DNA of 57,271 nt from Candidatus Micrarchaeota archaeon. GTDB taxonomy: Archaea > Micrarchaeota > Micrarchaeia > Anstonellales > Bilamarchaeaceae. Positions 51,001 to 54,000 of this stretch are shown one piece after another; within the stretch, counting starts at the first letter, position 1; each line of letters begins with the position of its first letter. The stretch lies in assembly GCA_038046805.1 (NCBI GenBank), contig JBBSVO010000006.1, forward strand, positions 43,081 to 100,351, in the 5' to 3' direction. The position numbers are program-made.

Positions 51001-54000
51001 TTCGTTTCTAGCAGAAGCTGCAAAAAAGAAAAAATTTTCAGTAACTGCAATTATTGCCGCCCGCAATGCAAGCGAAATTGTGCTGGAAAAAAGGCTGAAA
51101 AAAGCATGTAAGGTTATTGTTGCAACAGACGACGGAAGCAAAGGTTTCAAAGGAAATGCAGTTCAGGCCGCAAAAGCAGAAAATCTTTCATCGTTTGATT
51201 GCGTTTTCTCATGTGGTCCAGAAAAAATGATGTATTTTCTTGCGTTGGCCTGCAAAGATGCAAAAGTTCCGTGCCAATTAAGTCTTGAACGTCAGATGAA
51301 ATGCGGGATGGGAATCTGCGGTTCGTGTGCAATGAATGGAAAACTGGTTTGCAAGGACGGCCCAATCTTTAGTGGAGAAGAAGCATTGGGAATGAAGGAT
51401 TTCGGGAAATAAGTTTGTGGTCTCGTCACTACCATTTTTCTTGTAGCCACCATTTAAATAGTAAACAAGAGATGAAATTCTGGTTATCATGGCACTAAAA
51501 GACTGCCTACAAGAAGTCATACGTGGCATCAGGAAAGGCAAATTAATCGCAATTTACGATGGAGATGAACGAGAGGGAGAGGCCGACCTTGTTTTTCACG
51601 CAAGTTTTGCAACTCCGAAGAAAATCGAAATCCTCAGAAGAGCCGCTGGCGGTCTTATTTGTCTTGCTGTGGATAGAGAAATCGCAGAGCGGTTCTCCCT
51701 TCCGTTCTTTTCTGACCTCGTTTCTGATTCTGGTAATGCTCTAAAAGTAATCCTTTGCAAGAAAACAGCATATGGAGACAAACCTGCATTTTCGATTCCG
51801 ATAAACCATAACGAAGTTTATACCGGTATAACTGACAACGACCGTTCGCTTACCATCAAAAAATTTTCTGAACTTGTAGAATCCGGGGAAGGAAAACAGG
51901 ATTTTTGCAATAATTTTTATACTCCAGGTCATGTTTTTCTGCTTATTGGGCGTGGCATAGAGCACAGGCGTGGTCATACTGAGCTCTCCCTTGAACTGGC
52001 AAGGCGTGCTGGCATGAGCGGAACTATGGTTTTATGCGAAATGCTCGGAAAAGGAAAAGCGCTTTCAAAACAAAAGGTTAAGGAATATTGCAAGAAAAAT
52101 AGAATAAATTTTATCGAAGGAAGGGAAATTTATGGAAGACAATAAACCAATTCAAAACTCAAAAATCCGCATAGGGGTTGTAGACACCACATTCTCACGT
52201 GTGAATATGGGTGCAATTGCTTTGGACGAATTCAAAAAAAGTTTTCCGCACGTTGAAATCGTGCGCCATACCGTTCCCGGTATAAAGGACCTTGCCGTTG
52301 AATGCAAGAAGCTTCTTGATGATGGTTGCAATATTGTTGTTGCACTTGGGATGGTTGGTGGCGCTCAAATTGATATTCAATGTGCCCACGAAGCCTCTCT
52401 TGGAATTCAGCAGGCAAAACTACTGACAAATAAGCATATTGTCGAGGTTTTCATTCATGAAAACGAAGGCTGGAGCGAACGCGAGTTTTTGGAAATATGT
52501 GAAAACCGCATTCGGAAGCATGTTGAGAACGCAGTTCTGCTCGCGGAAAATCCAAACGCACTTGTTGAAAATGCAGGAAAAGGAATCAGGCAGGGAAAGG
52601 AAGATGAAGGAACAATAGACGGCGAAAATGCGGACAAACCAATTGTTCTGGGGGTTGTCGTTGCCTCGTTCAACGAGGATATTGCAATCGAAATGGCAAA
52701 AACTGCAAAGGAAACTGCCGAGGAAAGTGATGCAATCATTTTAGAAGTTCTCGAAGTTCCAGGAGCTTTTGATGTCCCGCTTGCGGTAAAGAAACTGCTT
52801 CTAAACAAGAAAATAGATGCAGTGGCAACACTTGGTGCCATCATAAAGGGAGAAACTGCACATGATGAACTTATTGCCAAAAGTACGGCCAATAAATTGT
52901 CAGAGCTTTCCCTTGAATTCAACAAGCCCGTTACTTTAGGAATAATCGGTCCAGATGCTGACGAGGATGCGGCTGATGAAAGAAAAGAGGAATATGCAAA
53001 GCGTGCAGTTAATGCCGCGATTTCTCTTGCGAGAAAACTAAGGAGATAAAATGGTGCTAAACCAGGTAGCAGATGCGTTTTTTCCTTCAAAATTCGGAAT
53101 GTTCAGGATTTATGCCTTTACCAACGGAGATGGAAAAGAGCATCTTGCACTTATTTGCGGGAAAAATGAAACCGGAACAGTGCCGCTCGTGAGGATTCAT
53201 TCCAAATGCCTGACTGGAGACACGCTCGCATCCTTTCGTTGCGACTGCAGGAGCCAGCTTGAGGCGGCACTTAAAATGATTTCAAAGGCCGGGAACGGAA
53301 TCCTGCTTTATTTAGATCAGGAAGGCCGCGGTATTGGTCTTTCCAACAAAATAAAAGCATACGCGCTTCAGGATAACGGAATGGACACCGTAGAGGCAAA
53401 TGTTCATCTTGGCTTTCCTGATGATTTGCGTGATTATTCCGCTGCTGCGGAAATCCTTCGCATTCTCGGAATTCGTGAAGTGCGGCTCATCACAAATAAT
53501 CTGAAAAAGACAGATTGTCTGGAAAAGTGCGGAATAAAAATAACCGAAAGAGTTCCGCTTGTTGTTAAAACAAATAAATTTAATAAAAAATACATCGAAA
53601 CCAAAAGGAATAAGATGAATCACATTCTATAATGCGCCATGGAGGTAATCTGATGTTCGCGGAAATAGCGTATTCAATTGTTTTAGGAAAGACCGTCATC
53701 TTTTGGACAGGTACTTTGGCATTTCTAACACTTATCTCTGGTGCAGGCATCGCCTTTTTCAAAAAGCCAATATTTCACAAGAATTATCTAGATGATCATA
53801 AGATAATTGTCAAAATAGGGATTCTCTTTGCAATATTGCATGCCATCCTTGCCATTGGTGCGTATCTATGACCCGCAAATTCCTTCCGCATATGTCTGAT
53901 GTTTTGATAGAAACATATGGAAAAACCTTTGAAAGCGCATACCAGGAGCTGTGTATTGGAATGTTTTCTCAAATGGGGCGTGACAGCGTTAAGAAGGAAT

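What a model noticed while it worked through the whole genome (the two positions that open the first line are those of the whole stretch)
52132..53049. Archaeal riboflavin synthase fused to lumazine synthase in one chain
g739 (305 aa) joins the archaeal-type riboflavin synthase (N-half) to its paralogue lumazine synthase (C-half), the enzymes of two consecutive steps, between ribB and a bacterial-type GTP cyclohydrolase II. The fusion marks the family Bilamarchaeaceae.
Evidence so far: N-half matches TIGR01506 ribC_arch over its cut-off (E 2e-55, call 85); a second DMRL_synthase domain follows. In a 41-genome sample all 7 family hits lie in frames of 292-329 aa, all 9 hits of other families in frames of 161-211 aa.
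(Added by a program. Inside this text positions count along the whole contig: contig position 43,081 is position 1 of the stretch shown here. "Call 12" and the like, gene names such as g00115 and contig names such as C1 are that model's own, and its searches are not shown. The text may have been shortened before it was handed on; [...] marks where a part breaks off. The agent that wrote the report below was given it as the finding of a first reader that could run no searches.)

Follow-up and report, generated by a model that had tools for sequence, protein, structure and literature searches.

The report
Fused riboflavin and lumazine synthase pentamers
In a group of tiny uncultured archaea, the last two enzymes of vitamin B2 synthesis, which are related and normally form separate five-subunit rings, are joined in one protein, probably as one ring stacked on the other, an arrangement that offers a simple natural test of whether the two steps hand their product to each other.

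Summary
The fusion is real. ORF 52132-53049 (305 aa) passes the cut-offs for archaeal riboflavin synthase (N-half) and lumazine synthase (C-half), and independent contigs span the junction. Conserved-site residues of both halves are kept, and the genome shows no other copy of either enzyme. 76 of 78 informative family genomes are fused, but it is no exclusive family marker. Two members carry a split, probably replaced, pair. Fusions also occur in another Micrarchaeota order and a Woesearchaeota-labelled protein, and trees reject one origin (p 0.001-0.006).

The family-type fusion has gained its own residues: Trp114 in 150 of 150 fused against 0 of 78 split sequences, plus a matching patch on the other half. 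AlphaFold fixes the two domains (pTM 0.80, against 0.49 for an independent fusion). Best reading: a bifunctional enzyme of two stacked five-membered rings. Activity, oligomer and channelling are untested, and a cage capped outside by synthase rings is not excluded. A tandem RbkR-type operator precedes the operon in 33 of 34 fused loci. No description was found in the papers searched. New variant of known enzymes.

The parts
52132..53049 (+). ribC-ribH fusion gene, 305 aa
   Evidence: junction covered by contigs of two other studies
52168..52614 (+). archaeal (pentameric-type) riboflavin synthase domain, residues 13-161
   Evidence: TIGR01506 over cut-off; 2b98 E 4.6e-47; model to 2b98_C Z 24.9, rmsd 1.3 over 151 residues
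52471..52473 (+). Trp114 codon, beta4-alpha4 loop; residue specific to the family-type fusion, candidate interface anchor
   Evidence: 150 of 150 fused, 0 of 78 split, 0 of 9 other fusions; interface role inferred
52615..52644 (+). short linker, residues 162-171
   Evidence: RQG-to-Phe distance 24 residues here, 21-23 in 101 of 118 homologues; split genes add up to about 21 (medians 9 + 12)
52645..53049 (+). lumazine synthase domain, residues 172-305 (F180, H244, R284; fusion-type patch 224-226)
   Evidence: TIGR00114 over cut-off; model to 1hqk_A Z 22.5, rmsd 1.2 over 136; conservation
51489..52145 (+). ribB, DHBP synthase (makes a substrate of the C-half); overlaps the fusion start by 14 nt
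   Evidence: TIGR00506 180.9 over 177.45
53051..53632 (+). ribA, bacterial-type GTP cyclohydrolase II
   Evidence: TIGR00505 240.8 over 205.85
51429..51464 (.). two adjacent 18-bp palindromes of the TTAC-N10-GTAA type, 24 nt before ribB: candidate RbkR operator
   Evidence: 15 of 16 consensus positions, best tandem in the genome; 33 of 34 fused loci against 0 of 34 control stretches; consensus from PMC5397151
45394..46113 (-). rbkR, winged-helix plus CTP-dependent riboflavin kinase (candidate regulator of the operon)
   Evidence: PF01982 over cut-off and weak MarR hit; PRK14165 159.6, below its cut-off 279

Best explanation
A bifunctional riboflavin synthase/lumazine synthase. Shown by sequence: both domains are complete, and they are the only such domains found in the genome. 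From known biochemistry: the C-half joins the ribityl-aminopyrimidinedione to DHBP to give lumazine, and the N-half turns two lumazines into riboflavin and returns one pyrimidine to the C-half. Inferred: each enzyme has its sites between like subunits of a five-membered ring, so five chains form two homo-rings on one axis. The end of the synthase chain lies by Trp114 on its catalytic face, and the short linker brings the N-terminal face of the lumazine synthase ring (residues 224-226) against it. The fusion arose by joining two adjacent operon genes, easy because both partners have five-fold symmetry. It happened several times in archaea, and in this family it was followed by selection for a fixed interface. 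The likely gain is 1:1 co-assembly and local recycling of the pyrimidine; direct channelling is not shown.
For: Both HMM cut-offs and folds. Residues invariant or nearly so in split enzymes are kept: D18, T19, F21, K52, D53, D81, C84, R126, R153 in 150 of 150; H244 and R284 147 of 147, F180 146 of 147. No PF00677 and no other PF00885 hit in G000, 86% complete; bacterial RibD present. Fusion-type residues: W114 150/150 vs 0/78, E159 149/150 vs 10/78, K226 146/147 vs 27/77, position 224 mostly Met/Leu vs mostly Glu/Lys. The alpha2-beta3 loop of the N-half varies from 13 to 43 residues, while the same loop of the C-half has one length in 147 of 147, as expected if the first face is free and the second buried. 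Covariation pairs F119-I162 and C123-I162 put the tail next to the W114 loop. pTM 0.80 with linker pLDDT 77-84, against 0.49 and 53-62 for P0123, a fusion of similar linker length without the Trp. One origin for all fusions rejected: p-AU 0.001 (LG+G4) and 0.006 (mixture model).
Against: No activity or oligomer was measured, and model coordinates could not be inspected, so the head-to-tail geometry rests on loop topology. The 150 fused sequences are the closest relatives of one clade (effective number 82 at 80% identity), so the 'fusion-specific' residues come from one event and could be clade traits. The C-half loop is also nearly constant in split enzymes (72 of 77), which weakens the buried-face argument. 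The pTM control had 10 mixed rows against 45. Covariation between the halves gave no coherent interface (25% of top pairs against 51% of all pairs). In this geometry the lumazine synthase sites would face away from the synthase ring, which does not favour direct hand-over. The residue matching Aquifex Lys135 is Tyr288 (also Tyr in 48 of 77 split enzymes).
Confidence: 0.6

Rival explanations
1. Neutral tether: the stop between two adjacent genes was lost and tolerated because both enzymes are pentamers. Both halves work, the rings are loosely linked and nothing is gained over separate enzymes.
For: Repeated origins (6-8 changes on the trees). Other fusions lack the Trp and vary in linker from 20 to 31. 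P0123 shows no fixed domain arrangement. Two family genomes manage with a split pair. This reading may well hold for the fusions outside the family.
Against: An invariant Trp where split enzymes have mostly Lys or Glu, tight linker length and pTM 0.80 in the family-type protein.
Confidence: 0.2
2. Inside-out cage: the lumazine synthase halves close into a 60-mer shell and twelve riboflavin synthase rings cap its five-fold vertices from outside, taking lumazine as it leaves through the five-fold pores.
For: Lumazine synthase termini lie on the capsid surface and tolerate fusions, and the review says some archaeal enzymes form capsids (PMC7369331, passages). A roughly 1 MDa particle for the M. 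jannaschii enzyme is recalled, not read here. The inferred head-to-tail geometry fits this layout.
Against: The positions matching Aquifex cage contacts named in PMC13376624 (I125, W137, loop 129-133; passages) are polar or missing here (D282, K290, shorter loop, my register), though split archaeal enzymes share this. The same paper says archaeal enzymes stay pentamers (section 9).
Confidence: 0.15
3. One half has lost catalysis and serves as scaffold or ligand binder.
For: In the C-half Pro274 (76 of 77 split enzymes) is His in 91 of 147 fused ones, and the stretch after it has drifted.
Against: The core conserved residues of both halves are invariant; no substitute gene found in G000.
Confidence: 0.04
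4. Sequencing or assembly artefact joining two genes.
For: Split pairs are often only one stop codon apart.
Against: 76 fused genomes and identical independent contigs across the junction.
Confidence: 0.01

Closest known systems
Pentameric riboflavin synthase of Methanocaldococcus jannaschii (PDB 2B98/2B99; TIGR01506)
   Same: 52% identity, same fold including the C-terminal arm
   Different: Stand-alone 156-aa chain; here it continues into a lumazine synthase and has Trp at 114 where the M. jannaschii chain has Lys
Lumazine synthase RibH (TIGR00114; PDB 1HQK, 1RVV)
   Same: Fold and the residues matching F22, H88, R127 (their roles are recalled)
   Different: No N-terminal arm (the linker takes its place), shorter loop after the Arg, Tyr for Lys135; no archaeal lumazine synthase appeared among the solved matches
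Heavy riboflavin synthase of Bacillus subtilis and Aquifex aeolicus (PMC13376624; passages and section 9 read)
   Same: Physically couples the same two steps
   Different: There an unrelated trimeric synthase is held non-covalently inside a 60-mer cage at 3:60; here paralogous domains are covalent at 1:1, and no PF00677 enzyme was found in G000
Known fusions of the pathway: RibBA, RibD, RibF, RbkR (PMC13151069 and PMC5397151, passages and one section each)
   Same: Fusion of riboflavin-pathway functions in one chain
   Different: A RibC-RibH fusion did not appear in the passages found; none of these joins two paralogous ring-forming enzymes
Engineered pentamer-on-pentamer chimeras (PDB 4Y7K MscL-riboflavin synthase; lumazine synthase display particles)
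   Same: Show that these rings accept a second pentamer at a chain end
   Different: Man-made; this is a natural case with two active partners

Membership tests
Archaeal pentameric riboflavin synthase (N-half) | TIGR01506 above curated cut-off | tested here: met
   207.6 vs 100.55
Archaeal pentameric riboflavin synthase (N-half) | 2B98 fold with C-terminal RQG arm | tested here: met
   Z 24.9, rmsd 1.3, 151 aligned (predicted model)
Archaeal pentameric riboflavin synthase (N-half) | Residues conserved across stand-alone enzymes (DT.F, PG.KD, D81, C84, R126, RQG) | tested here: met
   150 of 150 fused sequences; catalytic roles recalled, the structure paper was not held
Archaeal pentameric riboflavin synthase (N-half) | Homopentamer; dismutation of lumazine | not testable with these tools
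Lumazine synthase RibH (C-half) | TIGR00114 above cut-off and fold | tested here: met
   135.6 vs 84.6; Z 22.5 to 1hqk_A
Lumazine synthase RibH (C-half) | Phe22, His88, Arg127 equivalents | tested here: met
   F180 146/147, H244 147/147, R284 147/147; R284 placed by the ER motif, one residue off the pairwise register
Lumazine synthase RibH (C-half) | Lys135 equivalent of bacterial enzymes | tested here: inconclusive
   Tyr288 in 147/147 fused and 48/77 split archaeal enzymes
Lumazine synthase RibH (C-half) | Catalysis; pentamer, decamer or 60-mer | not testable with these tools
   needs purified protein
Heavy riboflavin synthase (encapsulated trimer) | Trimeric beta-barrel synthase (PF00677) with cage-localisation peptide | tested here: not met
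   0 matches in G000, 86% complete; control rang in 11 of 14 genomes
Exclusive marker of the window's family | Fused in every member that has the genes | tested here: not met
   76 of 78 informative genomes; G006 and G022 split
Exclusive marker of the window's family | Absent outside the family | tested here: not met
   G289 fused; P0128 labelled Woesearchaeota
RbkR regulon (TTAC-N10-GTAA type) | Tandem palindromes upstream of riboflavin genes, with a wHTH-kinase gene in the genome | tested here: met
   33 of 34 fused loci; RbkR match in 40 of 41 family genomes; binding not tested

The most novel reading that the evidence does not exclude
An inside-out counterpart of heavy riboflavin synthase: a natural 60-chain particle (about 2 MDa) in which a lumazine synthase shell carries twelve riboflavin synthase rings docked over its five-fold pores through Trp114, so that lumazine passes straight from shell to cap and the regenerated pyrimidine returns.
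Probability: 0.15. Interest if true: 0.8.

Novelty: new variant of a known kind. Interest (0 to 1): 0.5.

Why it matters
Coupling of these two steps has been studied for decades in one form, a trimer inside a cage, and reviews still debate how substrates enter and products leave (PMC13151069 section 11). A covalent 1:1 version of two paralogous rings is a different solution. It makes the channelling question easy to test: one gene, cut at the linker or with one Trp changed, with close split relatives as controls. It is also a clean case of symmetry-matched fusion arising repeatedly, with an interface evolving in one lineage, and a natural ring-on-ring scaffold on a protein much used for nanoparticles. 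Databases label these proteins only 'riboflavin synthase', hiding the second activity in free-living-type DPANN archaea.

Tried and rejected
Covariation between the halves (mean-field DCA, 144 sequences, effective 82) recovered some within-domain sheet contacts but no coherent inter-domain set: inconclusive. Split pairs were in frame in 58 of 69 cases, but the searches favour in-frame pairs, so I do not count this as predisposition to fuse. Long open frames in G202, G397, G143, G267 and G365 looked like fusions and proved to be separate ORFs. Fission as the origin of G006 and G022: rejected, because their pairs lie in a starred (99) branch with other families' and euryarchaeal pairs, away from the family fusion. 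P0173 (two lumazine synthase domains) is an almost exact internal duplicate and probably an assembly artefact. RNA evidence is only two short contigs at depth about 3 in one metatranscriptome, neither across the junction: no proof of expression. A search for FAD synthetase used an unsuitable family (TIGR02199), so that step is untested. The ESM Atlas gave only the protein's own cluster and stand-alone synthases, with no model. Earlier scan findings: none. Literature: full-text searches gave no listing that describes this fusion. Term searches inside PMC13151069, PMC5397151 (and its supplement), PMC8561730 (and its supplements), PMC13376624, PMC7369331 and PMC10366380 showed none either. Figure 3 of PMC5397151, which marks gene fusions, could not be seen, the supplements of PMC13376624 were not searched, and most subscription papers are not held.

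Full report
Observation. The window holds one stop-free ORF at 52132-53049 (+), 305 aa, overlapping the end of ribB and followed after 1 nt by ribA. Residues 14-162 pass the cut-off of the archaeal riboflavin synthase model TIGR01506 (207.6 vs 100.55), and residues 173-303 pass that of lumazine synthase TIGR00114 (135.6 vs 84.6). ribB and the bacterial-type GTP cyclohydrolase II also pass theirs. The AlphaFold model (pLDDT 92) overlays 2b98_C with Z 24.9 over residues 11-161 and Aquifex lumazine synthase 1hqk_A with Z 22.5 over 169-305. Contigs from two DNA runs of different studies cover the junction without a difference.

Role in the genome. G000 (86% complete) has no trimeric-type riboflavin synthase (PF00677), and its only two PF00885 matches are the two halves. 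A bifunctional bacterial RibD lies on the same contig. So the early pathway is bacterial-type, the last step archaeal-type, and the fusion is the only source found for both final activities. Positions invariant or nearly so among split enzymes are kept in the fused set: D18, T19, F21, P49, G50, K52, D53, D81, C84, E112, R126, R153 and G155 in 150 of 150; G240, T242, H244 and R284 in 147 of 147; F180 in 146 of 147. The catalytic roles of these residues are recalled; the structure paper was not held.

Distribution. Of 99 family genomes 79 match. 72 match full length in one frame, 2 with an insertion in one frame, and 2 across the junction at a contig end (76 fused). 2 are split (G006, G022) and 1 is uninformative. 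G006 has two fused genomes in its own genus. In a phylum sample of 401 genomes, 79 of 325 outside the family match. One of them, G289 from another order, is fused; 18 others that I cut out were split, and the 38 weakest matches were not listed. The representative library gave ten proteins matching across the junction: one family-type, one G289-type and eight divergent (P0123-P0130). The seven full-length non-family ones pass both cut-offs, and P0128 is labelled Woesearchaeota. P0148 has the reverse order with a RibH2-like domain, on one 1.6-kb contig.

History. A tree of joined halves (85 rows) needs 7 changes of state. A thinned set of 55 rows, with 30 near-redundant or distant rows dropped, needs 8 or 6 depending on the model. 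Holding all 23 fused rows together is rejected (p-AU 0.001 and 0.006). The group was defined before the tree, but many branches are weak, the pairs are assumed to travel together, and the number of origins is not fixed. The pairs of G006 and G022 sit in a starred branch far from the family fusion, which points to replacement of the operon rather than fission. The join is end to end: 21-23 residues between the RQG motif and the first conserved Phe in 101 of 118 homologues (four larger values are pattern failures), against medians of 9 + 12 for split genes.

Signs of an interface. The family-type fusion has residues that split enzymes lack: W114 (150/150 vs 0/78, and 0/9 in other fusions), E159 (149/150 vs 10/78), K226 (146/147 vs 27/77) and a hydrophobic 224. 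From the secondary structure, W114 lies on the strand-end face of the N-half, which in this fold carries the active site (established knowledge), and 224-226 lie on the opposite, N-terminal face of the C-half. Covariation ties I162 to F119 and C123, so the tail ends beside the W114 loop. The N-half tolerates large insertions on its N-terminal face. AlphaFold gives pTM 0.80 for this protein but 0.49 for P0123, with a similar linker length and no Trp. Against this: the fused set is one clade chosen by similarity to the query and deduplicated only by exact sequence; the control alignment was shallower; inter-domain covariation was noise; and coordinates could not be viewed.

Mechanism. Active sites of lumazine synthase lie between adjacent subunits of a pentamer (PMC13151069 section 11), and the archaeal synthase is a pentameric paralogue of very similar structure (passage). 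Conservation of both sites argues for like-with-like rings, and five chains then give a synthase ring on a lumazine synthase ring, most simply coaxial and head to tail (inferred, 0.6). Whether the lumazine synthase rings close further into a shell is open. The papers seen disagree on archaeal enzymes, and the Aquifex cage-contact positions are polar or missing here, but also in split archaeal enzymes. No oligomer model was available. Channelling is not shown; in a lone double ring the geometry would rather favour co-assembly and local recycling than direct transfer.

Regulation. Two adjacent palindromes at 51429-51464 match the TTAC-N10-GTAA consensus that PMC5397151 gives for RbkR in Thermoplasmata and Thaumarchaeota, with tandem sites reported in the latter (section 11; its table lists no DPANN group). 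I relaxed the ends to Y/R after seeing the window's site. A tandem scoring at least 13 of 16 lies before ribB in 33 of 34 fused loci against 0 of 34 control stretches inside ribB, and in 15 of 46 split loci against 1 of 46. The control is coding DNA, but genome-wide this is the only 15/16 tandem in 1.2 Mb. RbkR matches occur in 40 of 41 family genomes. G023, the one fused locus without the tandem, matches only the kinase half (a single case).

Comparison and verdict. Each half is a member of its known family by every sequence test run; the whole is not the encapsulated heavy riboflavin synthase. Seven full-text searches (listings and abstract starts) and term searches in six papers showed no description of the fusion. 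Unseen figures, unsearched supplements and subscription papers could hold one. Source databases name the proteins 'riboflavin synthase'. Verdict: a real, widespread and apparently undescribed variant of known enzymes, not an exclusive family marker, with a testable structural hypothesis. Interest 0.5.

Noticed in passing
window 51429-51464 and upstream of ribB in L002-L094: Tandem TTAC-N10-GTAA-type palindromes, a candidate RbkR operator; would extend the RbkR regulon to Micrarchaeota (33 of 34 fused loci).
   Followed up: yes
G023, G019, G104: Only the kinase half of RbkR matches, in frames of 133-142 aa; G023 also lacks the tandem operator.
   Followed up: partly
P0148 (316 aa, one 1.6-kb contig): Reverse-order fusion: RibH2-like lumazine synthase (PRK12419 over cut-off) followed by an archaeal-type riboflavin synthase.
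   Followed up: partly
P0134, P0135 (synthase); P0207, P0221, P0231, P0236, P0257, P0258 (lumazine synthase): Both enzymes also occur with 150-250-residue Pro/Ala/Glu-rich N-terminal tails without Pfam match. Five of the lumazine synthases share an N-terminal motif and mostly an internal one; possibly another way to bring the enzymes together.
   Followed up: no
G050, G051 (L039:1602-2588), P0042, L084, L086, L089: Insertions of about 10-30 residues in the alpha2-beta3 loop of the synthase half.
   Followed up: partly
L033:1477-2580 (G000 C6, outside the window): Bacterial-type bifunctional RibD (TIGR00326 over cut-off), unlinked to the rib operon.
   Followed up: yes
P0177, P0189: Helix-turn-helix domains fused to a riboflavin synthase (N-terminal HTH_3) and to a lumazine synthase (C-terminal DeoR-like).
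   Followed up: no
window 47982-48248 (-): 88-aa ORF that looks like a RelE/ParE-type toxin by eye; not scanned.
   Followed up: no
window 54272-54826 (-): 184-aa ORF with an apparent lipoprotein-like signal stretch, between purN and archease; not characterised.
   Followed up: no
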